NCBI GenBank assembly: GCA_041571435.1
Contig: JBFFUI010000038.1
Location: 1-22,270 of the forward strand
Origin: Sulfurimonadaceae bacterium
Lineage (GTDB): Bacteria > Campylobacterota > Campylobacteria > Campylobacterales > Sulfurimonadaceae
Direction: 5' to 3'
DNA: 22,270 bases
The notes below the pieces were generated by a model. It made no database searches, was not told the DNA's origin, and saw nothing but the letters and a program-made list of their open reading frames with translations. Shown one piece after another: positions 7,461 to 18,563 of this stretch (position 1 is the first letter of the stretch; each line of letters begins with the position of its first letter). A program made the position numbers and the translations under genes.

Positions 7461-7716
7461 GAATCGAGTCTGGTGTCGAAGTTGATATAAGTGAAAAAAA
7501 TGTTTGGATTGTATGTCTGAATAGGAAAAGTAGTGGCGCGGTGGACGACATGGCAAAGAAGGGTGCTGTGAGCACGCTTTTTGGCTCAAGTCATATTAAT
7601 AAAGAGCGCAGAGAAACATTAATAGCGAAGCGAGTTTGACGTCGAAGTTAATGTATGAAAAAAAATTGTTTGGATTGTTTGTTTTAAAAGGGAAAAAGTA
7701 GTGGCGCGGTGGACGA
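7461..7716 (-). repeat. Imperfect ~90-bp direct repeat (7461-7548 vs 7627-7716) that includes the last 15 nt of tRNA-Asp
   Basis: TGGCGCGGTGGACGA occurs at 7534-7548 and 7702-7716; the flanks GTCGAAGTT, TGTTTGGATTGT and AAAAGTAG are shared. Confidence 0.8.
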
Positions 7717-7778
7717 GACTCGAACTCGCGACCCCCTGCGTGACAGGCAGGTATTCTAACCAACTGAACTACCACCGC
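7702..7778 (-). tRNA. tRNA-Asp(GTC)
   Basis: 77-nt cloverleaf GCGGTGG...CCACCGC-G-CCA; anticodon arm CCTGC-CTGTCAC-GCAGG. Confidence 0.97.
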
Positions 7779-7792
7779 GCATGTAATAATAA

Positions 7793-7868
7793 TGGTGGGC
7801 ATTACAAGACTCGAACTTGTGACATCTACCTTGTAAGGGTAGCGCTCTACCAACTGAGCTAAACGCCC
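7793..7868 (-). tRNA. tRNA-Val(TAC)
   Basis: 76-nt cloverleaf; anticodon arm CTACC-CTTACAA-GGTAG; encoded CCA. Confidence 0.97.
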
Positions 7869-7884
7869 ATTTTCAACACCTGAA

Positions 7885-7960
7885 TGGCGACCCCTAAAGG
7901 ATTTGAACCTCTGTTCTTACCATGAAGTGGTAATGTCCTTGGCCACTAGACGAAAGGGTC
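7885..7960 (-). tRNA. tRNA-Glu(TTC), atypical (A32, C33, U38; weak T-stem)
   Basis: GACCCTT...AGGGGTC-G-CCA; U11-A24, U13-G22 and short variable loop typical of Glu; anticodon arm TTACC-ACTTCAT-GGTAA. Confidence 0.88.
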
Positions 7961-7978
7961 AAGATTGAACAATGTAAA

Positions 7979-8054
7979 TGGTGGGCATTACAAGACTCGA
8001 ACTTGTGACATCTACCTTGTAAGGGTAGCGCTCTACCAACTGAGCTAAACGCCC
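7979..8054 (-). tRNA. tRNA-Val(TAC), identical to the copy at 7793
   Basis: Same 76-nt sequence. Confidence 0.97.
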
Positions 8055-8074: not shown

Positions 8075-8151
8075 TGGCGCGGTGGACGAGACTCGAACTC
8101 GCGACCCCCTGCGTGACAGGCAGGTATTCTAACCAACTGAACTACCACCGC
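8075..8151 (-). tRNA. tRNA-Asp(GTC), identical to the copy at 7702
   Basis: Same 77-nt sequence. Confidence 0.97.
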
Positions 8152-8162
8152 ACATTTATAAA

Positions 8163-8238
8163 TGGTGTCCCGTGATGGACTCGAACCATCGGCATCCTCA
8201 TTAAAAGTGAGATGCTCTACCAACTGAGCTAACGGGAC
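8163..8238 (-). tRNA. tRNA-Lys(TTT)
   Basis: GTCCCGT...ACGGGAC-A-CCA; anticodon loop CTTTTAA. Confidence 0.97.
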
Positions 8239-8274: not shown

Positions 8275-8303
8275 ATTATAGGCAAAAGATTCTTCGTTGT
8301 CAA
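8275..8303 (-). promoter_or_regulatory. Consensus sigma70 promoter of the tRNA operon
   Basis: TTGACA (8303-8298), 17-nt spacer, TATAAT (8280-8275) on the minus strand. Confidence 0.88.
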
Positions 8304-8313
8304 GAGCTTTTTG

Positions 8314-9405
8314 CTATTTTTGAAAAAAAACTTTTTTATCCCCTAAAACCAGCATTTTAAGAGCGGTTAAAGCACTCTGCTGCTGAATATAGTTTCGGTC
8401 GCCATGGAAGTGATATCTCTTGACTTTTTCATAGGTGTTAGATTTGACGCCGATGACGACAGTGCCGACCGGTTTCTCGTCGCTACCGCCGTCTGGTCCG
8501 GCAACACCGCTGACGGCAAGTGCATAATCTGCTTTAGCGATGCCGAGTGCACCTTCGCACATTTCAGAGACAACCACCTCGCTGACCGCACCGTTGGCAA
8601 CGAGCGTACTGTTCTCTACTGCCAGCCAGTTCTCTTTTAAAATATTGGAGTAGGTGACCAGGGAGCCTTCAAATACTGAAGAGACACCGGCATGAGAGGT
8701 GAAGTAGCAGGCGAGAAGCCCGCCGGTGCAACTCTCTGCCAGCGTGATCTTCTGCTCTGTTGCAAGGATAGCGTCGATGATGTGCTGTACAAGGTCATCG
8801 GCAACAATGATCTTGTCGATATACCGCTCTTTAGCGATCGCCATAAACTTGTCGATAGAGCCGTATGTGTTGCACGCAACTTCGACCTCTACCCACCCGT
8901 CAACGATCTGTGAAAAGGCAGGTACGACGTCAAACTGTCTGGCCAGAGGCTTTAGATGCTCTATAACCTCTTTGATCGATGTCTCGAAAAAGTGCAGTTT
9001 CTGTTTTGCAGAAGGTTCCAAAAGAAGGCGCTGCGGCAGCTCGTGTGACTCCTGTGCCTGTATGACGTTGACAGCTGCGTCTTTAATGTCGAGACGGTAG
9101 CTGTTTTTTGTGAAGTTCTCACACTGTGAAGGTATGAGCATCTGCTCTTTGAGTACAAGCTTGTCATCGGTCACGGTGCAGAGCAGCTTGCCTACCAACG
9201 TAAAGCTTTTCGCACTTGTAACAACATAGATCTTTTCACTGTGAGAAAGTCTGTTCTCGAGTTCGGAAAAGAAATTGCGGTCAGCCTCATCAAAATATTC
9301 GATCGAATTGAGCTTGCCGTCTGCTTCGGTCAGCCTGATGATGTACTCTCTGAAGGGACGGTTCTGGGTGAAAATATTGCCGATAAAGTACAGACGTTTT
9401 TTCAA
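8314..9405 (-). CDS. cinA: CinA family protein with C-terminal PncC (NMN deamidase) domain
   Basis: AESCTGG, VTYSN..K, GAVS and SGVAGPDGGS..KPVGTV motifs; likely TTG start at 9405 with GGAG 6-7 nt upstream and TATACT at 9448-9443. Confidence 0.88.
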   Translation of the reverse strand: MKKRLYFIGNIFTQNRPFREYIIRLTEADGKLNSIEYFDEADRNFFSELENRLSHSEKIYVVTSAKSFTLVGKLLCTVTDDKLVLKEQMLIPSQCENFTKNSYRLDIKDAAVNVIQAQESHELPQRLLLEPSAKQKLHFFETSIKEVIEHLKPLARQFDVVPAFSQIVDGWVEVEVACNTYGSIDKFMAIAKERYIDKIIVADDLVQHIIDAILATEQKITLAESCTGGLLACYFTSHAGVSSVFEGSLVTYSNILKENWLAVENSTLVANGAVSEVVVSEMCEGALGIAKADYALAVSGVAGPDGGSDEKPVGTVVIGVKSNTYEKVKRYHFHGDRNYIQQQSALTALKMLVLGDKKVFFQK

Positions 9406-9455
9406 ATTTCGCTCCAGCGTTGAGATCGCACTATTTATGAGAAGTATAACACAAT

Positions 9456-9610
9456 ACGATGATGTGACAAGCGCGGCCTGTGGCATTGAAGAAACGTTAA
9501 TTGGTCGGTTTCAGCGGTTCACATTCTCCATCGTGATTAAAACCTTGATCGGCCCTTTGCCCCCTGTGAAAGAGGATACGCTGCGGTCGTGCCTTGTTGT
9601 CAGCCCATTT
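9456..9610 (+). ncRNA. ssrS: Probable 6S RNA (rod-shaped structured RNA with central bubble); ends approximate
   Basis: 9466-9484 pairs with 9580-9598 and 9503-9510 pairs with 9547-9554, with several G-U pairs favouring the + strand; unpaired bubble 9485-9502/9555-9579; GCGGTT...TTAAAAC resembles E. coli 6S RNA. Confidence 0.62.
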
Positions 9611-9664: not shown

Positions 9665-12424
9665 ATGGATTATAAAGAGACTCTGTTACTGCCTAAAACA
9701 GACTTCCCGATGCGTGGGAATCTTGTTCAAAACGAACCTAAGCGATATAAAGCCTGGGATGAGAACAAGATCTATGAAAAGATGAAGAAAAATCGTAAAG
9801 ATGCTGAGCCTTTCACACTGCATGACGGACCGCCGTATGCAAACGGTCATATCCATATCGGCCACGCCCTCAACAAGGTCCTAAAAGACATCATCATCAA
9901 GTTCAACTACTTCAATCACAAGTCGGTGCGTTTTACACCGGGTTGGGACTGCCATGGTCTGCCGATCGAGCAGCAGGTAGAGAAGAAGCTTGGCGGCAAG
10001 CAGAAGAAAGAGCTTCTCAGCACAGGTGAAGTCCGTAAACTTTGTCGTGAACATGCGGCCAAGTTCGTTGATGTCCAGCGTTCAGAGTTCAAGACCCTCG
10101 GTATTTTGGCAGACTGGGAAAACCCTTACCTCACAATGGACTATAAGTTCGAAGCGAACATCTATCGTACCCTCTGTGATGTCGCCAAGAAAGGGCTGTT
10201 GATCGAGCGTTCTAAACCGGTCTACTGGTCATGGGCTGAACGTACGGCGCTTGCAGAAGCAGAAGTCGAGTATGAAGATAAAGAGTCACACTCTATCTAT
10301 GTCGCGTTCGAACTCAGTGAAGAGTCGAAAGTCCGTATGGGCATTGAAGGAAAAGCGGCTCTGGTTATCTGGACGACGACACCTTGGACATTGCCGGCCA
10401 ATGTCGGTATCTCTCTTAACCCGGACGAGAAGTATGTCCGCACGAGTGACGGTTATATCGTCGCCGAGAAACTCTACAATGAGAACATCGAAAACGGTGT
10501 ATTCTCCGGAGAGGTCGTTCAGACTTTCGATGCTGCCAAATTTGAGAACCTACATGCGATCAACCCTCTAAACGGCCGTTCGTCTCACATTGTTTTAGGT
10601 GAGCACGTCTTGATGGAGAGCGGTACAGGTTGTGTCCATACAGCACCGGGACATGGTGAAGATGACTACCGTGTCGGCCTGAAGTACAATCTTGATGTCA
10701 TTATGCCGGTCGATGAGACGGGCTGCTACGATCAGACGGTCGTTCGCGAAAGACTTTTCCCTAATCCTGAGGAGTTTGTCGGGAAACATATCTTCAAGTC
10801 GAACGAACCGATCCTGGAACTGCTTGGCGATGGGCTTTTGAAAGTCAGCAAGTTTACCCACTCCTATCCGCATTGCTGGCGTTCACATACGCCGCTGATC
10901 TTCCGTGCGACGAAGCAGTGGTTTATCGCAGTTGACCAGAAGCCTGAAGGTGAAGAGCGAACACTTCGTGAGATCGCTCTTGAAGAGGTCGCAAAAACCG
11001 ATTTCTACCCGGAGACCGGCCGTAAACGTCTTAACTCTATGGTCGAGAACCGTCCGGACTGGTGTATCTCCCGTCAACGTGACTGGGGTGTGCCGATCGC
11101 ACTGTTCCGTGTAAAAGCGACCGGTGAAGTGATCCTTGACGAGAAGGTTCTGAATTTTGTAGCGATGATCTTTGAGATGCAGGGTTCTGATGCCTGGTAC
11201 ACGATGGAGATCGCAGAGCTGCTCTATCCGGGTTCAGGATACAAGCCAGAAGAGCTGGAGAAGGTCGATGACATCCTTGACGTCTGGTTTGATTCGGGTT
11301 CAACCTGGAATGCGGTACTTAAGTCACGCAACTACGACGCAGGCCAGTATCCGACCGACCTTTATGTCGAAGGTTCCGACCAGCACCGAGGCTGGTTTCA
11401 GTCGTCACTGTTCTTGAGTGCGGCAGTTCAGTCAAAAGCACCCTACAAAGGTATTTTGACCCACGGCTTTACCGTTGATGCCAAGGGCGAGAAGATGTCC
11501 AAGTCAAAAGGCAACGTCGTCGCTCCGGACAAGGTCGTTCAACAGTATGGTTCAGAGATCCTTCGTTTCTGGGTTGCGATGAGTGACTACCAGACTGACC
11601 TGAAGATCTCTGACGACATTTTGAAGCAGATCGCAGAACAGTACCGTAAACTGCGCAATACCTTCAGATTCCTGTTAGCGAACATCGATGACCTAGAGAC
11701 GATCATGCCGTATAGCGAGATGGGTGAACTTGACCGCTGGATCGTCTCCAAGGCGCAGGTCGTTTTCGACGAGACGCACAAGCAGTTCGGCGAGTACAAT
11801 TTTGTCGGCGGTATGAGTACGCTTAACAACTTTATTGTCAATGAGCTGAGCGGTATCTTTATGGATATCACCAAAGACAGACTCTACTGTGATGCAAAAG
11901 ATGATGCACACCGTCGTGCTTCGCAGAGTGCGATGGCGATGATCACGAAGTCGCTGCTTGGTCTGATAGCACCGATCTTGACCTACACGGCCGATGAGAT
12001 CATTGAGAGTGCACCGGCGGTCATAAAAGGCGATGCCGAAGATATCTTTGACTTCGTCTATACGCCGATCAATGTCGAGTATTCACTGTTTGACGAAGAG
12101 TACATGGTCAAGGCACGCGAAGGTTTCTCGGAAGTGGTCGACGGCCTCAAAAAAGAGAAAAAGATCAAAAGTACGCTGGAACTCATTATCTATGGTGAGT
12201 CAGCAAAAATCAGCGCGCTTCCTGAAGTTGAAGCGGAAGATTGGTTCGTTGTCTCCGGTATTGAAGCAGGGCTGCCTGTTGAAAAAGTGGGTGAGTTCAA
12301 TGTCGAGGGCGATACCTTTGTCATCGGTATGGCAACAGAAGCGAAGTGTCCGCGTTGCTGGAAGTTCCACTCGAAAGACGAAGAGAGCCTGTGTGACCGT
12401 TGTGACAAGGTGATGAATGTTTAA
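9665..12424 (+). CDS. ileS: Isoleucine--tRNA ligase (type 1)
   Basis: LHDGPPYANG.HIGH, GWDCHGLP, WCISRQR and KMSKS motifs; C-terminal CPRC..CDRC zinc site. Confidence 0.98.
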   Translation: MDYKETLLLPKTDFPMRGNLVQNEPKRYKAWDENKIYEKMKKNRKDAEPFTLHDGPPYANGHIHIGHALNKVLKDIIIKFNYFNHKSVRFTPGWDCHGLPIEQQVEKKLGGKQKKELLSTGEVRKLCREHAAKFVDVQRSEFKTLGILADWENPYLTMDYKFEANIYRTLCDVAKKGLLIERSKPVYWSWAERTALAEAEVEYEDKESHSIYVAFELSEESKVRMGIEGKAALVIWTTTPWTLPANVGISLNPDEKYVRTSDGYIVAEKLYNENIENGVFSGEVVQTFDAAKFENLHAINPLNGRSSHIVLGEHVLMESGTGCVHTAPGHGEDDYRVGLKYNLDVIMPVDETGCYDQTVVRERLFPNPEEFVGKHIFKSNEPILELLGDGLLKVSKFTHSYPHCWRSHTPLIFRATKQWFIAVDQKPEGEERTLREIALEEVAKTDFYPETGRKRLNSMVENRPDWCISRQRDWGVPIALFRVKATGEVILDEKVLNFVAMIFEMQGSDAWYTMEIAELLYPGSGYKPEELEKVDDILDVWFDSGSTWNAVLKSRNYDAGQYPTDLYVEGSDQHRGWFQSSLFLSAAVQSKAPYKGILTHGFTVDAKGEKMSKSKGNVVAPDKVVQQYGSEILRFWVAMSDYQTDLKISDDILKQIAEQYRKLRNTFRFLLANIDDLETIMPYSEMGELDRWIVSKAQVVFDETHKQFGEYNFVGGMSTLNNFIVNELSGIFMDITKDRLYCDAKDDAHRRASQSAMAMITKSLLGLIAPILTYTADEIIESAPAVIKGDAEDIFDFVYTPINVEYSLFDEEYMVKAREGFSEVVDGLKKEKKIKSTLELIIYGESAKISALPEVEAEDWFVVSGIEAGLPVEKVGEFNVEGDTFVIGMATEAKCPRCWKFHSKDEESLCDRCDKVMNV

Positions 12425-12425
12425 C

Positions 12426-12536
12426 ATGACAGAGCCGGTGAGCGCCATGACCATCATCGTGACGATCGTAATTATCGTCGCCGTCTCTCTGCTCGGCATC
12501 TATGCAGTAAAAAAAGCAAAAAAGGATAATGTTTGA
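12426..12536 (+). CDS. 36-aa single-pass membrane protein (not in ORF track)
   Basis: [36 protein letters not shown]; starts 1 nt after the ileS stop, and its TGA overlaps the gatA TTG. Confidence 0.8.
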
Positions 12537-13870
12537 TTACACTTAAAGAAGCCCTTAGCCTCTCGAAAGAGGAGCTAGCCACTTTTAAAGACGATCTCAA
12601 AAAACAGATCGAAGCAAGGCCTGAGATCAATGCCTATGTTGATATCAACAATGTCGGTGACGGTGTGCCGATCGCGATCAAAGATAACATCCAGGTCAAA
12701 GAGTGGTCCGTGACGTCAGGTTCGAAGATCCTGCAAGGCTACATCGCACCGTACAATGCGACGGTGATCAACAAGCTGACAGAGGCGGGTCTTTCACCGT
12801 TTGGACGTACCAATATGGATGAGTTCGCAATGGGCTCGACAACAGAGAGCTCATGCTACGGTATCACACAAAACCCGCATAACCCGAACTGCGTACCCGG
12901 TGGTTCTTCAGGCGGATCTGCAGCCGCAGTCGGTGCAGGACTTGCTATTGCGGCACTGGGTTCCGATACCGGCGGATCGATCCGCCAGCCGGCCGCTTTT
13001 TGCGGGATCGTCGGGATGAAGCCGACCTATGGCCGTGTCAGCCGTTACGGTCTGGGAGCCTACGCGAGCTCGCTTGATCAGATCGGACCGATGACACAGA
13101 ATGTTGAAGATGCGGCAATTCTTTATGACATTATCAGCGGACACGATGAGAAAGACTCGACAAGCTATGCAAGCAATGACAAGGTCGCTGACAAGCTTGA
13201 CCCGTCTCGCAAACTGACGATCGCCATTATCCCGGACCATGTCAAAGATGCCAGTGACGATATCAAAAAAGGGTATGAAAAAGCGATCGAGGCACTCAAA
13301 GCCGCCGGTCATACTATTGTCGAAAAGAGCCTGATGGACGGTAAGTTCGATATCTCTGCTTACTACATTACGGCAACCGCTGAGGCCACGACGAACCTCG
13401 CACGCTATGACGGTATCCGTTACGGAAACCGTAAAGAGGGTGAAAACCTTAACGACCTTTTTGTCAAGACCCGTTCGGAAGGTTTTGGCGACGAAGTCAA
13501 ACGTCGTATTCTTCTGGGTAACTTTGTTCTTTCTAGCGGGTATTATGATGCCTACTATGTCAAAGCACAAAAGGTACGTCACCTGATCAAAGAGGAGTAT
13601 GCAAAACTCTTTGCCGAAGTCGACCTTATCTTAAGCCCTGTAGCGCCGCGTACGGCCTACGAAGTCGGTGCTTTGGAAGATCCGCTCGAGATGTATTTGA
13701 GTGATATCTATACCATCTCAGTCAACCTTGCCGGATTGCCTGCAATTTCATTGCCGGTAGACAAAGCAGAGAACGGCATGCCGGTCGGTCTGCAACTGAT
13801 CGCCAACGCATATGAGGAGCAGACACTGTTTGACGGTGCCCTCTCATTAGAAAAACAATTAAATTCATAA
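12533..13870 (+). CDS. gatA: Asp/Glu-tRNA(Asn/Gln) amidotransferase subunit A
   Basis: Amidase signature GGSSGGS...[22 protein letters not shown] and RYDGIRYG. Confidence 0.97.
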
Positions 13871-15977: not shown

Positions 15978-17243
15978 ATGCATTTTCAAACAGAAGCACT
16001 ACACGCAGGCTACGAGAAAGATTCTCAGTCAACAATGGCTGTACCGATTTATATGAGTACAGCGTATGAGTTTCGTGATGTTGAACATGCAGCCAACCTC
16101 TTTGCACTGAAAGAGCTTGGCAATATCTATACCCGTCTTAACAATCCGACGACCGATGTCTTTGAAAAACGTTTTGCCCAGCTTGAAGGGGGAGAAGCGG
16201 GGCTTGCGACATCCAGCGGTATGTCAGCGATCTTCTATGCGATCGCCAATGCTGCCGAAGCGGGCGATAACATCGTCTGTGCTTCACAGCTTTACGGCGG
16301 ATCGCTGACACTGTTCTCACACACACTGAAGCGTTTCGGGATCGAAGCGCGTTATTTTGACGTGCAGAACCCGCAAACGGCCGAAGCGCTTATCGACGAC
16401 AAGACCAAAGTGATCTTTTTTGAAAGCCTAACCAACCCGAGTATCGATGTCGCTAACATTGCAGCGATCACGGCCATTGCCAACAAACACAAGGTTCTGA
16501 CGGTCGTTGACAACACGGTTGCGACACCGGCACTCTGCCGTCCGCTGGAACACGGGGTCGATGTCGTTGTACACTCTGCCAGTAAATATACGACCGGTCA
16601 GGGGCTTGCCATCGGCGGGATCATGGTCGAGCGTAAAGGCTTGGTCGATAAGCTCAAAGGTAACCTGCGCTACGCACACTTTAACGAGCCGGATACCTCG
16701 TATCATGGACTGGTCTATGTTGATGTCCCGCTTCCTGTCTACACCCTGCGTGCACGTCTGTCACTCTTGCGTGATATCGGGGCCGTCAGTTCACCGTTTA
16801 ACTCATGGCTCTTTATTCAGGGCTTGGAAACACTTTCACTTCGTATGAAAGAACATTCACACAATGCCCTGATGTTGGCAGAGTTCCTGGAAGGTCATCC
16901 TAAAGTTGCCGTAGTCAACTATCCGGGCCTGAAATCAAACCCGAACTATGAAAATGCGCAGCGTTATTTTGATAAGGGGCAGGCGAGCGGGCTCTTAAGC
17001 TTTGTCGTCAGTGATTATGACCAAGCAAAAGCGATCGTCGATGCGACCAAGCTTTTTTCACTCGTGGTGAACATCGGTGATTCGAAATCGATCATCACGC
17101 ACCCGGCATCGACAACACACCAACAGCTTTCAGAAGATGAGCTCGTTGCCTGCGGCGTGCCTGCGGGGCTGATCCGTATCAGTGCAGGCCTTGAGAATGT
17201 TGCCGATCTTATAGCAGACCTTTCACAGGCGTTAGAGGCGTAA
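15978..17243 (+). CDS. metY: O-acetylhomoserine aminocarboxypropyltransferase (sulfhydrylase)
   Basis: GNIYTRLNNPT, SSGMSA, VDNT, HSASKY (PLP lysine) and NIGDSKS..THPASTTH motifs. Confidence 0.93.
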   Translation: MHFQTEALHAGYEKDSQSTMAVPIYMSTAYEFRDVEHAANLFALKELGNIYTRLNNPTTDVFEKRFAQLEGGEAGLATSSGMSAIFYAIANAAEAGDNIVCASQLYGGSLTLFSHTLKRFGIEARYFDVQNPQTAEALIDDKTKVIFFESLTNPSIDVANIAAITAIANKHKVLTVVDNTVATPALCRPLEHGVDVVVHSASKYTTGQGLAIGGIMVERKGLVDKLKGNLRYAHFNEPDTSYHGLVYVDVPLPVYTLRARLSLLRDIGAVSSPFNSWLFIQGLETLSLRMKEHSHNALMLAEFLEGHPKVAVVNYPGLKSNPNYENAQRYFDKGQASGLLSFVVSDYDQAKAIVDATKLFSLVVNIGDSKSIITHPASTTHQQLSEDELVACGVPAGLIRISAGLENVADLIADLSQALEA

Positions 17244-17245
17244 CC

Positions 17246-18373
17246 ATCGAAGCAAGAAAAAGCAGAGAGCTCTTAAACCTAGAGACCCATAGTGAACACT
17301 TTACTAATCCTCTGTACCTGGAGAGCGGGCGTATCCTGGAACCGTACGACATCGTCTATGAGACCTACGGCAAGATGAACGAAGAGAAGTCGAACATCAT
17401 CGTCGTGTGCCATGCGCTGACCGGTTCGCACCATGCCGCCGGCTACTACGAAGGCGAGCACAAACCGGGCTGGTGGGACGGCCTGATCGGTCCGGGCAAA
17501 GCCATCGATACCGACGAGTATTTCGTCATCTGCACCAATGTCATCGGCAGCTGTTTCGGCTCGACCGGACCGATGTCGACGATGTACCCGCACCTTGAAG
17601 CCTACCGCTACAAGTTCCCTGTCGTCACGATCAAAGACATGGTCAAAGCGCAGCGTATTTTGTTCGACCGTTTGGGCATCCACCATGTCCATGCCATTGT
17701 AGGCGGGTCGATGGGCGGTATGCAGGCGCTGCAGTTCGCCGTACATTTTCCGAAGTTCGCGACCAAGATCATCACCATGGCCGCGACCCATGCGACCCAG
17801 CCGTGGGCGATCGCGTTTAACAAGGTCGCGCAGGAGTCGATCCTGAACGATCCCGACTTTAAAAACGGTTACTACGACCCCGAAGACATTCACGAAAACG
17901 GTCTGAGCGGCATGGCGGTCGGGCGTATGGCAGGGCACATCAGCTTTTTGTCGCCCCACTCGATGGAACAGAAGTTCGGGCGTGAATACAAACGCACGGA
18001 CGGGCTGTATGAGCTTTTCGGCAAGTTTCAGGTGGAGTCGTACCTGGAGTACAACGGCTACAACTTTACCAAATGGTTCGACCCGCTTGCCTATCTCTAC
18101 ATCACCAAAGCGATCAACATCTACGATCTTTCGCGCGGCTTTGACTCTCTGGAAGAGGCCCTGGAGAAGATCCAGTCAGAGACCTATCTGATAGGCTTTA
18201 AAGACGACATGCTCTTTAAGAGCGATGAGATGAAGACCATCGCCGACGGACTGGCGGGACGGGCCGATCTGAAAAGCGACTACCTGGAAGTGGACAGCGA
18301 CTACGGGCACGACGCCTTTTTGGTGGAGCTCGACAAATTTGAAGATTATGTAAGAAAGGCGTTGCATGAGTGA
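17246..18373 (+). CDS. metX: Homoserine O-acetyltransferase; true start is upstream of the ATG at 17375 (candidate ATC at 17246)
   Basis: LESG...YETYG (upstream of the first ATG), CHALTGSHH, GWWD, GGSMGGMQ and YGHDAFL motifs. Confidence 0.9.
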   Translation: MEARKSRELLNLETHSEHFTNPLYLESGRILEPYDIVYETYGKMNEEKSNIIVVCHALTGSHHAAGYYEGEHKPGWWDGLIGPGKAIDTDEYFVICTNVIGSCFGSTGPMSTMYPHLEAYRYKFPVVTIKDMVKAQRILFDRLGIHHVHAIVGGSMGGMQALQFAVHFPKFATKIITMAATHATQPWAIAFNKVAQESILNDPDFKNGYYDPEDIHENGLSGMAVGRMAGHISFLSPHSMEQKFGREYKRTDGLYELFGKFQVESYLEYNGYNFTKWFDPLAYLYITKAINIYDLSRGFDSLEEALEKIQSETYLIGFKDDMLFKSDEMKTIADGLAGRADLKSDYLEVDSDYGHDAFLVELDKFEDYVRKALHE

Positions 18374-18563
18374 GAAGAGAGCAGAAGATTTTGAAGTCAG
18401 ACTGGAGAAAGCGAAGGTGATCCTGGAGAAGCTGATGAACCCGGAGATCACCCTCAGTGACAGTGTCAAGGCGTATGAAGAGGGGATGAAAGAGCTTCAG
18501 GAAGCACAGAAGATGCTTGAGAACGCCCAGCTTCAGATAGAACAGATCCGTACACAGCAGTAG
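18366..18563 (+). CDS. xseB: Exodeoxyribonuclease VII small subunit
   Basis: FEVRLE...ILEKL...ITLSDSVKAYEEG...LENAQLQI pattern. Confidence 0.88.
   Translation: MSEKRAEDFEVRLEKAKVILEKLMNPEITLSDSVKAYEEGMKELQEAQKMLENAQLQIEQIRTQQ

What the first reader, a model, noticed from the sequence alone, without database searches (positions are those of the whole stretch)
7885..7960. Atypical tRNA-Glu(UUC) with C33 and a weak T-stem: candidate non-ribosomal tRNA
Seen: the anticodon loop is A32-C33-UUC-A37-U38, so the near-invariant U33 is C, and A32-U38 can pair to leave a 5-nt loop. The T-stem is A49-U65, G50-U64, A51-U63. Glu identity features (U11-A24, U13-G22, no nt 47, UUC) and CCA are intact, and it sits in an operon with a consensus promoter. 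Known: U33 makes the anticodon U-turn; pairs 49-65, 50-64 and 51-63 tune EF-Tu affinity; elongator tRNA-Glu normally has a tight-binding T-stem; staphylococcal non-proteinogenic tRNA-Gly carry weak pairs here; Glu-tRNA is the substrate of HemA; many Campylobacterota have two GluRS. Inference: this may be a chargeable tRNA diverted from translation, for example to tetrapyrrole synthesis or a tRNA-dependent glutamyl transfer.
Basis: partly seen in the sequence, partly recalled or inferred. Interest (0 to 1): 0.72.

Follow-up and report, generated by a model that had tools for sequence, protein, structure and literature searches.

The report
Conserved off-ribosome-looking glutamate tRNA
This is a real, well-conserved second glutamate tRNA whose anticodon loop and elongation-factor-binding stem have moved away from what protein synthesis normally needs; it belongs to a tRNA lineage already known in Helicobacter to bind the elongation factor poorly, so it probably delivers glutamate to something other than the ribosome.

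Summary
Window 7885-7960 (-) is a 76-nt tRNA-Glu(UUC) with loop A32-C33-UUC-A37-U38 and T-stem A49-U65/G50-U64/A51-U63, fourth gene of a Lys-Asp-Val-Glu-Val-Asp operon behind a 12/12 sigma-70 consensus promoter. It is no error or pseudogene: the loop ACUUCAU is kept across the family (Sulfurimonadaceae by record titles), with compensatory stem changes. The genome also has a canonical tRNA-Glu(UUC) (U33, A73, tight T-stem), usually two copies in relatives.

C33 alone does not mean "non-ribosomal": a complete Dehalococcoidia chromosome has a C33 tRNA-Glu(UUC) as its only UUC glutamate tRNA. The telling feature is the T-stem: published increments give -8.1 kcal/mol against a class mean of -10.4. 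The same paper (2011) lists this value for Sulfurimonas denitrificans and measured weak binding for the Helicobacter pylori counterpart, function unknown.

New here: across Campylobacterales, wherever the G73 lineage coexists with an A73 tRNA-Glu, it has weak T-stems and odd loops (C33, C37, U37); where alone, it is canonical.

Best reading (0.5): a chargeable Glu-tRNA kept away from EF-Tu, most plausibly for glutamyl-tRNA reductase. No biochemistry was possible.

The parts
7885..7960 (-). tRNA-Glu(UUC), G73 lineage, 76 nt, CCA encoded: the finding
   Evidence: ARAGORN; Rfam RF00005 48.1 bits; cloverleaf kept in 27 distinct family sequences, 99.5% of cells paired, 4 pairs with compensatory change, 0 of 500 shuffles as high
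7922..7928 (-). anticodon loop A32 C33 U34 U35 C36 A37 U38; C33 is base 7927 (G on the + strand)
   Evidence: read; loop kept in relatives; contigs of three RNA libraries covering 7927 show no other letter (contigs only)
7908..7912 (-). T-stem 5' strand, positions 49-53 (A G A G G)
   Evidence: read; pairs A49-U65, G50-U64, A51-U63 give calculated -8.1 kcal/mol
7896..7900 (-). T-stem 3' strand, positions 61-65 (C C U U U)
   Evidence: as above
8163..8238 (-). tRNA-Lys(UUU), first gene of the operon; the only tRNA-Lys found in this assembly
8075..8151 (-). tRNA-Asp(GUC), copy 1
7979..8054 (-). tRNA-Val(UAC), copy 1
   Evidence: 100% repeat of 7791-7872
7793..7868 (-). tRNA-Val(UAC), copy 2
7702..7778 (-). 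tRNA-Asp(GUC), copy 2, last gene of the operon
8275..8303 (-). sigma-70-type promoter TTGACA-17 nt-TATAAT, 12 of 12 matches
   Evidence: a consensus match, not a mapped start site
7563..7575 (-). weak terminator-like hairpin downstream of the operon
   Evidence: 5 pairs, poor T tail; 2 such sites found against 0.9 expected

Best explanation
The gene encodes a functional, expressed and chargeable tRNA-Glu(UUC) of the 'G73 lineage' of Campylobacterales. In families where this lineage is the only tRNA-Glu it is the ordinary elongator. In the window's family a second lineage (A73, U33, tight T-stem, usually two copies) has taken over decoding. The G73 copy has been remodelled so that Glu-tRNA made from it largely escapes EF-Tu (G50-U64 and A51-U63), and its anticodon loop no longer has to fit the ribosome (C33, A32-U38). 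It keeps what GluRS needs: the UUC anticodon, the U11-A24 / U13-G22 / A46 / no-47 core and the acceptor stem. The result is a pool of Glu-tRNA protected from translation. Its most plausible consumer is glutamyl-tRNA reductase (C5 route to haem and sirohaem), the only Glu-tRNA-using enzyme other than the ribosome that I found in this genome.

Shown: sequence features, conservation, co-occurrence with the A73 lineage, and the calculated EF-Tu penalty.
Published for the Helicobacter counterpart: weak EF-Tu binding.
Inferred: orthology of function, exclusion from translation, and the GluTR destination.
For: (1) Selection, not decay. The loop ACUUCAU is kept in 20 of 21, 20 of 21 and 15 of 15 family genomes in which the gene was read. 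The anticodon stem meanwhile changes by compensatory pairs: 27 distinct sequences, 99.5% paired, 4 pairs changed on both sides, 0 of 500 shuffles as high.

(2) It shares one operon and a 12/12 consensus promoter with the only tRNA-Lys and both tRNA-Asp genes of the assembly, so it should be made in quantity.

(3) A canonical partner exists. The A73 tRNA-Glu(UUC), loop UUUUCAU, is found in 22 of 24 family genomes plus the own genome. It has two copies against one G73 copy in the closed genomes G003, G016 and G024.

(4) EF-Tu. With the increments of Schrader and Uhlenbeck 2011 (PMC3239215 Table 2), the window tRNA calculates to -8.1 kcal/mol and its A73 partner to -10.6; the class mean in the paper's Table 4 is -10.4. 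The paper's Table 4 lists exactly -8.1 for 'Thiomicrospira denitrificans' tRNA-Glu(UUC). For the H. pylori tRNA-Glu(UUC) it gives -8.0 calculated and -8.6 and -8.4 measured. Both are filed under 'another gene copy present' as candidates for a role outside translation.

(5) Order-wide pattern. Where the G73 lineage was found without an A73 partner it is canonical (loop CUUUCAC, -10.6). Where the A73 lineage is present, the G73 lineage calculates to -8.0 to -9.5, or has a U-U mismatch at 50-64. Its loops there break decoding rules in different ways: C33 (families f1 and f25, some of f26, one genome of f10), C37 (most of f10, f6, genome G001) and U37 (some of f26). The anticodon stays UUC in these families.

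(6) One GluTR gene is present.

(7) Precedent for dividing tRNA-Glu species between haem and protein synthesis in Acidithiobacillus ferrooxidans (PMC4284751, passages).
Against: No experiment on this tRNA exists, and none could be run.

C33 is compatible with translation. In a closed Dehalococcoidia chromosome, 47 Rfam tRNA hits gave 46 ARAGORN tRNAs, and the single tRNA-Glu(UUC) has C33. Also, 24 of 25 C33 tRNA-Glu from other phyla have tight T-stems.

The EF-Tu figure is calculated. T-stems with G50-U64 are the ones the source paper found non-additive; the H. pylori tRNA measured 0.4-0.6 kcal/mol tighter than calculated.

The model was not checked against this family's EF-Tu residue by residue. 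tuf is not in this assembly. A same-genus EF-Tu is very like E. coli's (668 bits), but the three contact residues were not read.

The families that carry both lineages may form one clade, so the co-occurrence may rest on few independent events.

Family f25 has both lineages and GluTR, and families with only the canonical G73 tRNA must also feed GluTR. The phylogenetic profile therefore does not single out GluTR.

Which H. pylori species (Glu1 or Glu2) is the weak binder is my inference from G73/A73, the printed -8.0, and an unnamed 1.6-Mb genome whose two tRNA-Glu are 60/76 identical.
Confidence: 0.5

Rival explanations
1. It is still an elongator: a minor, tuned isodecoder that reads GAA/GAG on the ribosome with lower EF-Tu affinity and altered loop geometry. 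It might serve particular conditions or adjust decoding speed or accuracy, with no role outside translation.
For: C33 tRNA-Glu(UUC) must translate in Dehalococcoidia. It sits in a housekeeping tRNA operon. The anticodon, cloverleaf and CCA are intact. EF-Tu is abundant in cells, so a 2 kcal/mol penalty need not abolish delivery (general knowledge). The T-stem calculation is least reliable for G50-U64 stems.
Against: The weak T-stem and the loop anomalies appear together, and only where a canonical A73 tRNA-Glu is present. In sister families the same lineage carries a pyrimidine at 37, which is hard to reconcile with efficient decoding. The H. pylori counterpart was measured as a weak EF-Tu binder.
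Confidence: 0.3
2. It is a redundant copy drifting under relaxed selection, on its way to being a pseudogene; C33 and the weak pairs are tolerated damage without function.
For: Redundancy with one or two canonical copies. The lineage shows many different loop anomalies across families. The Rfam score is lower than its neighbours'. No match was found in 4 of 24 family genomes, though these are fragmented assemblies.
Against: Within the family the seven loop bases, the D-arm and the acceptor stem are invariant or nearly so, while stems change by compensatory pairs. The gene keeps its place in the operon in every locus read. A drifting copy would be expected to lose pairing, the anticodon or CCA.
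Confidence: 0.1
3. C33 protects this tRNA-Glu from an anticodon nuclease (toxin or defence system) that needs U33, so it is a spare that keeps GAA/GAG decoding alive under attack.
For: C33 tRNA-Glu also turns up in accessory tRNA arrays: a Pseudomonas megaplasmid (L053) and a Met-Glu-Thr array in Ramlibacter (L081). Anticodon-loop changes as nuclease evasion are described for phage tRNAs (recalled, not looked up).
Against: A spare for translation should bind EF-Tu well, and this one is predicted not to. For the one tRNA-Glu nuclease I read about, yeast gamma-toxin, U33C did not change cleavage (PMC2275089, passages). No such nuclease was sought or found here.
Confidence: 0.05
4. C33 is edited or modified after transcription so that the mature tRNA has a U-like base at 33 and is canonical.
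For: None direct. C-to-U editing of tRNA anticodon loops exists in trypanosomatids at position 32 (search listing only).
Against: Contigs from three RNA libraries of three studies that cover base 7927 show no other letter. This is weak evidence: contigs drop rare variants and RNA libraries can hold DNA. Editing would not explain the weak T-stem.
Confidence: 0.03

Closest known systems
Helicobacter pylori weak-EF-Tu-binding tRNA-Glu(UUC) (Schrader and Uhlenbeck 2011, PMC3239215, passages read; it cites Cathopoulis et al. 2008, which is not held)
   Same: Same order and the same two-lineage set-up: G73 and A73 species, both charged by GluRS1 in H. pylori (PMC2777447). Both have G50-U64 and A51-U63 in the T-stem. 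The calculated values are nearly equal (-8.0 and -8.1), and another canonical copy is present. In an unnamed 1.6-Mb genome of family f26 the two species sit in one Lys-Glu-Val-Asp-Glu operon.
   Different: The f26 tRNA keeps a canonical loop (CUUUCAC, U33, A37) in the genomes of that genus; the window tRNA adds C33 and A32-U38. EF-Tu binding was measured for H. pylori and not for this tRNA. Its function is stated as unknown in the paper.
'Glu UUC Thiomicrospira denitrificans' outlier in Table 4 of the same paper
   Same: Thiomicrospira denitrificans is Sulfurimonas denitrificans, family Sulfurimonadaceae. The printed -8.1 equals what the window's T-stem gives, so this is in all likelihood the same gene in a relative.
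   Different: The paper scored three T-stem pairs only. In the passages I read it does not mention position 33, the loop, or conservation across the family.
Staphylococcal non-proteinogenic tRNA-Gly for the peptidoglycan bridge
   Same: A second isoacceptor with a weak EF-Tu T-stem beside a normal copy, listed in the same Table 4.
   Different: There the consumer (Fem transferases) is known; here none is shown. The amino acid and phylum differ.
Acidithiobacillus ferrooxidans tRNA-Glu set (Levican et al. 2005, as summarised in PMC4284751)
   Same: Two GluRS and several tRNA-Glu species that are not equivalent for GluTR and translation.
   Different: The specialised species there is the one GluTR rejects (translation only): the mirror image of what is proposed here.
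C33 in eukaryotic initiator tRNA-Met
   Same: A natural C at position 33 (Grosjean and Westhof 2016, PMC5041475, name it with Candida G33 as the exceptional cases).
   Different: That is an initiator, eukaryotic and P-site bound. The present case is a bacterial elongator-type tRNA-Glu.

Membership tests
tRNA (Rfam RF00005) | Score at or above the gathering cut-off of 29 bits with a full-length cloverleaf | tested here: met
   48.1 bits, model positions 1-71; ARAGORN call
tRNA (Rfam RF00005) | Near-invariant U33 | tested here: not met
   C at 33; this lowers the score but does not remove membership
tRNA-Glu (identity set known for E. coli GluRS; the set is recalled, and partly restated in PMC2777447) | UUC anticodon, A37, U11-A24, U13-G22 with A46, no nucleotide 47, G1-C72 | tested here: met
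   All read in the sequence and invariant in 27 distinct family sequences apart from A37 in one. Pair 2-71 is A-U here; I recall U-A in E. coli.
tRNA-Glu | Charged with glutamate by the organism's GluRS1 | not testable with these tools
   Two GluRS genes are present; no charging data.
Weak-EF-Tu-binding 'outlier' tRNAs with a normal second copy (Schrader and Uhlenbeck 2011) | Calculated binding more than 1.3 kcal/mol weaker than the class mean, from pairs 49-65, 50-64, 51-63 | tested here: met
   -8.1 against a mean of -10.4
Weak-EF-Tu-binding 'outlier' tRNAs with a normal second copy | Another gene copy of the same anticodon with a normal T-stem | tested here: met
   G000:C6:16243-16317, A49-U65 G50-C64 G51-C63, -10.6
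Weak-EF-Tu-binding 'outlier' tRNAs with a normal second copy | Measured weak binding to EF-Tu | not testable with these tools
   Measured only for the H. pylori tRNA
Non-proteinogenic (non-ribosomal) aminoacyl-tRNA donors, Staphylococcus tRNA-Gly type | A known enzyme that takes the aminoacyl group from this tRNA species in preference to the elongator | not tested
   GluTR is present but its preference is unknown. A LanB-type domain was not found, with an uninformative control.
Non-proteinogenic aminoacyl-tRNA donors | Exclusion from ribosomal decoding | not testable with these tools
   Indirect only: the loop anomalies of the lineage

The most novel reading that the evidence does not exclude
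Campylobacterales that carry two tRNA-Glu lineages have split the job completely. The A73 species translates. The G73 species is a dedicated, EF-Tu-evading glutamate carrier for tetrapyrrole synthesis (or another still unknown Glu-tRNA consumer), whose anticodon loop is maintained only for GluRS recognition. That is why C33, C37 or U37 can be fixed in different families. This would be the first natural tRNA given over wholly to haem synthesis, and it would explain the H. pylori tRNA-Glu whose function has stood as unknown since at least 2011.
Probability: 0.3. Interest if true: 0.8.

Novelty: new variant of a known kind. Interest (0 to 1): 0.55.

Why it matters
Glu-tRNA is shared between protein synthesis and the first step of haem synthesis, and how cells divide it is poorly understood. 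A weak-EF-Tu tRNA-Glu has been known in H. pylori, and was listed for Sulfurimonas, since 2011 without a function.

The comparison made here adds an evolutionary argument. Only where a canonical partner exists does this lineage lose both EF-Tu-friendly pairs and decoding-friendly loop bases, while keeping what the synthetase needs. That makes the question directly testable in culturable Sulfurimonas or in H. pylori.

Separately, C33 elongator tRNA-Glu in Dehalococcoidia and other phyla shows that U33 is less universal in bacterial elongator tRNAs than reviews state. This matters for tRNA gene finders and for models of the anticodon U-turn.

Tried and rejected
1. Sequencing error or strain-specific pseudogene: rejected by conservation.

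2. 'Only tRNA-Glu in the genome': rejected.

3. Read evidence. The look-up of sequencing runs gave only Logan contigs. Laid on 7869-7978, contigs of three RNA libraries cover the tRNA with C33 unchanged. Contigs cannot show transcription, ends, level or rare editing, so this is neither proof of expression nor proof against editing.

4. GluTR phylogenetic profile. Family f25 seemed at first to lack the G73 lineage (0 of 6 by the pattern). BLAST then found it with a longer D-loop in 5 of 5, and GluTR is present in 5 of 5, so the profile is uninformative.

5. LanB-type glutamylation domain PF04738 in the own genome: no hit, but the control rang in none of 14 genomes, so nothing follows.

6. EF-Tu contact residues (T350, E390, Q341 in Thermus numbering). 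EF-Tu domain 3 was not found in the own assembly. A same-genus EF-Tu was fetched, but I did not obtain an alignment to a Thermus chain, so the residues were not read.

7. Which H. pylori tRNA-Glu is the weak binder. Cathopoulis 2008 (PMC2897013) is not held. Superscripts are lost in the text of PMC3239215. The supplement of PMC2777447 with the tRNA sequences is a PDF that cannot be read here. It may settle the assignment that I could only infer.

8. My first type-2 pattern was too narrow: it missed the A73 species of family f26, whose loop is CUUUCAC. 'No A73 lineage' in the other families therefore means not found with that pattern, not absent.

9. Literature on bacterial C33. Searches (C33, U33, tRNAGlu, anticodon loop, U-turn, tRNA genes, bacteria) brought no paper describing C33 in a bacterial elongator tRNA-Glu among the listed hits. 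Subscription journals are mostly not held.

11. The whole-tRNA minimum-energy fold is not a cloverleaf for this tRNA or for the two comparators. That is usual for unmodified tRNA predictions and is not used as evidence.

Full report
WHAT IS THERE

ARAGORN finds six tRNA genes on the minus strand of the window: Lys(UUU) 8238-8163, Asp(GUC) 8151-8075, Val(UAC) 8054-7979, Glu(UUC) 7960-7885, Val(UAC) 7868-7793 and Asp(GUC) 7778-7702. Rfam's tRNA model matches all six. The Glu gene scores 48.1 bits against 68.4-73.7 for the others.

- loop A32-C33-U34-U35-C36-A37-U38;
- T-stem A49-U65, G50-U64, A51-U63, G52-C62, G53-C61;
- U11-A24, U13-G22, A46, no nucleotide 47;
- G73 and an encoded CCA.

A perfect TTGACA-17-TATAAT promoter precedes tRNA-Lys. 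In silico the anticodon arm prefers an A32-U38 pair and a five-base loop (unmodified RNA, prediction only).

Flanking genes are CinA-like (8314-9486, -), IleRS (9665-12424, +), a GatA-like amidase (12533-13870, +), IMPDH and a PAS protein. None points to a special use of the tRNA.

IS IT REAL AND CONSERVED?

The window's genome (66 contigs, 39 tRNAs by ARAGORN) has a second tRNA-Glu(UUC) at C6:16243-16317. It is 75 nt, with loop UUUUCAU and A73. I call the window gene the G73 lineage and the other the A73 lineage.

BLAST of the window tRNA against 40 relatives found it in 20 of 24 genomes of the same family, and more distantly in most other families of the order. In the 21 family loci, own genome included, the operon is kept. 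The loop is ACUUCAU in 20; the exception is G001, with AUUUCCU.

A second, evenly drawn family sample gave 21 loci with the gene, 20 with ACUUCAU and one (G047) with UUUUCAU. An order-wide pattern search found the C33 form in 14 of 14 family genomes plus the own.

Of those 80:
- 53 are this tRNA in records titled Sulfurimonas, Sulfuricurvum, Sulfurimonadaceae or (older naming) Helicobacteraceae;
- one is an Arcobacteraceae record;
- 25 are C33 tRNA-Glu from other phyla;
- one was not confirmed as a tRNA.

Twenty-seven distinct family sequences keep the cloverleaf: 99.5% of cells are paired, four pairs change on both sides, and 0 of 500 shuffles reach this. So C33 is a fixed, selected state of a functional gene.

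DOES C33 MEAN 'NOT FOR THE RIBOSOME'?

No. Five Dehalococcoidia genomes that carry a C33 tRNA-Glu(UUC) (loop CCUUCAA) showed by BLAST only that gene and a tRNA-Glu(CUC).

For one closed 1.9-Mb chromosome I fetched all 47 Rfam tRNA hits. ARAGORN names 46 tRNAs, covering all 20 amino acids, every anticodon in a single copy except three CAU genes. The only tRNA-Glu(UUC) has C33, and it is the only tRNA there without U33. GAA codons must be read by it.

Of the 25 C33 tRNA-Glu from other phyla, 24 have T-stems calculated at -10.1 to -10.8 kcal/mol, which is normal for the class. The exception, a Smithella record, has the window's own A-U/G-U/A-U stem.

THE T-STEM IS THE INFORMATIVE PART, AND IT IS ALREADY IN PRINT

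Schrader and Uhlenbeck 2011 (PMC3239215; passages and tables read) give additive increments for pairs 49-65, 50-64 and 51-63. With them the window tRNA calculates to -8.1 kcal/mol and its A73 partner to -10.6; the paper's mean for Glu(UUC) is -10.4.

Their Table 4 lists 'Glu UUC Thiomicrospira denitrificans' at -8.1. It also lists 'Glu UUC Helicobacter pylori' at -8.0 calculated, and -8.6 and -8.4 measured. Both stand under 'another gene copy present' as candidates for functions outside translation. For H. pylori the function is stated to be unknown. Thiomicrospira denitrificans is Sulfurimonas denitrificans.

Caveat: stems with G50-U64 were the non-additive ones in that work, so the true value may be some tenths tighter.

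THE ORDER-WIDE PICTURE (NEW HERE)

In 201 genomes of 26 families of the order:
- a G73-type pattern matched 170 genomes;
- a narrow A73-type pattern matched 64, in families f1, f4, f6, f7, f9, f10, f16 (2 of 14) and f25.

BLAST added family f26, whose A73 species has another loop.

Where no A73 species was found (f2, f3, f5, f11, f14, f15, f17, f19, f22, f24), the G73 tRNA is canonical: loop CUUUCAC, with A-U/G-C/G-C or A-U/C-G/G-C at 49-51.

Where both lineages exist, the G73 tRNA is aberrant:
- f1: C33 and -8.1;
- f25: loop UCUUCAA (C33) in 4 of 5 genomes;
- f10: AUUUCCU (C37) in most, ACUUCAU in one;
- f6: UUUUCCG;
- f9: GUUUCAU and -8.0;
- f4 and f7: A51-U63 or U51-A63;
- f26: -8.0, with loops CUUUCAC, CUUUCUA or CCUUCUA.

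The A73 species are uniformly U33/A37 and -10.1 to -10.8.

In f26 (1.6-Mb genomes) both species lie in one Lys-Glu-Val-Asp-Glu operon and are 60/76 identical. [quoted passage not shown] I therefore infer that the published weak binder is the G73 species and that the window gene is its relative.

These families may be one clade, so the number of independent events is unknown.

WHAT IT PROBABLY DOES

The lineage keeps the anticodon and the D-arm/variable-region core that GluRS uses. It loses features that serve EF-Tu and the ribosome, and it stays in a strongly promoted operon.

That is what one expects of a glutamate carrier that must be charged but not consumed by translation. The genome has two GluRS (a GluRS1-like protein and a divergent paralogue) and one GluTR. 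GluTR is the obvious consumer, and A. ferrooxidans offers a precedent for non-equivalent tRNA-Glu species.

I put 0.5 on 'kept away from translation for another use', and about 0.3 on the stronger claim that it is dedicated to GluTR. The main rival (0.3) is a minor but genuine elongator.

LIMITS

- No biochemistry.
- Read data were contigs only.
- EF-Tu contact residues were not checked.
- Family names were inferred from record titles.
- The key 2008 paper and one supplement could not be read.

Noticed in passing
G000:C1:93248-93323 (own genome, outside the window); loci L228-L233, L247: A second tRNA with C33 in the same genome: tRNA-Val(GAC), loop UCGACAA. It is 90% identical over positions 7-76 to the window's tRNA-Val(UAC). 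The same C33 loop occurs in 6 genomes of at least 4 genera of the family; one further genome (L247) has U33 (UUGACAU).
   Followed up: partly
L045/L182 and regions L202-L227 (G041), L183-L186; also L035, L036, L044, L051, L061-L098: tRNA-Glu(UUC) with C33 (loop CCUUCAA) and a normal T-stem in Dehalococcoidia, Chloroflexia, Pelolinea, Pirellulales, an Actinomycetes MAG, a Betaproteobacteria MAG and Polyangiales. In one closed Dehalococcoidia chromosome it is the only tRNA-Glu(UUC). U33 is thus not universal in bacterial elongator tRNAs.
   Followed up: partly
L031:3001-3075 and L259:1495-2793 (G000:C6:16243-16317 and 17184-18482): The canonical A73 tRNA-Glu lies about 870 nt upstream of, and on the same strand as, the divergent GluRS paralogue (433 aa; 240 bits to PDB 6b1p_A against 577 bits for the other GluRS). 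tblastn with this paralogue matched 7 of the 30 A73 loci examined.
   Followed up: partly
matched strings (families f10, f6, f26); L010 (G001): A pyrimidine at position 37 (C37 or U37) in the G73-lineage tRNA-Glu of several families. The loops ACUUCAU and AUUUCCU occur as alternatives in both family f1 and family f10, as if either C33 or C37 were acceptable but not U33 with A37 beside A32-U38.
   Followed up: no
L088 (record titled Smithella sp.): A C33 tRNA-Glu(UUC), loop CCUUCAG, with exactly the window's weak T-stem (A-U, G-U, A-U; -8.1). It is the only one of 25 non-Campylobacterota C33 tRNAs with a weak stem.
   Followed up: no
L022 (G035, family f12) and f12 rows: Both tRNA-Glu genes seen in this family's Lys-Asp-Val-Glu clusters carry CUC anticodons, several with U at 37. 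No UUC species was seen, so how GAA is read there is open.
   Followed up: no
window 7461-7529 and 7627-7695; about 7533-7550: The 69 nt downstream of the last tRNA-Asp are repeated at 78% identity 166 nt further on, followed by a fragment that resembles the 3' end of tRNA-Asp. This is probably the scar of a lost or partial Asp-Val duplication unit.
   Followed up: no
own genome G000: No EF-Tu domain 3 (PF03143) was found in the assembly although it is rated 100% complete. tuf probably lies in an assembly gap next to contig ends that start with tRNA genes (C22, C30).
   Followed up: no
L053 (Pseudomonas serbica plasmid record), L081 (Ramlibacter): C33 tRNA-Glu(UUC) genes (loops UCUUCAC and CCUUCAC) inside accessory tRNA arrays on a megaplasmid and in a Met-Glu-Thr cluster.
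   Followed up: no
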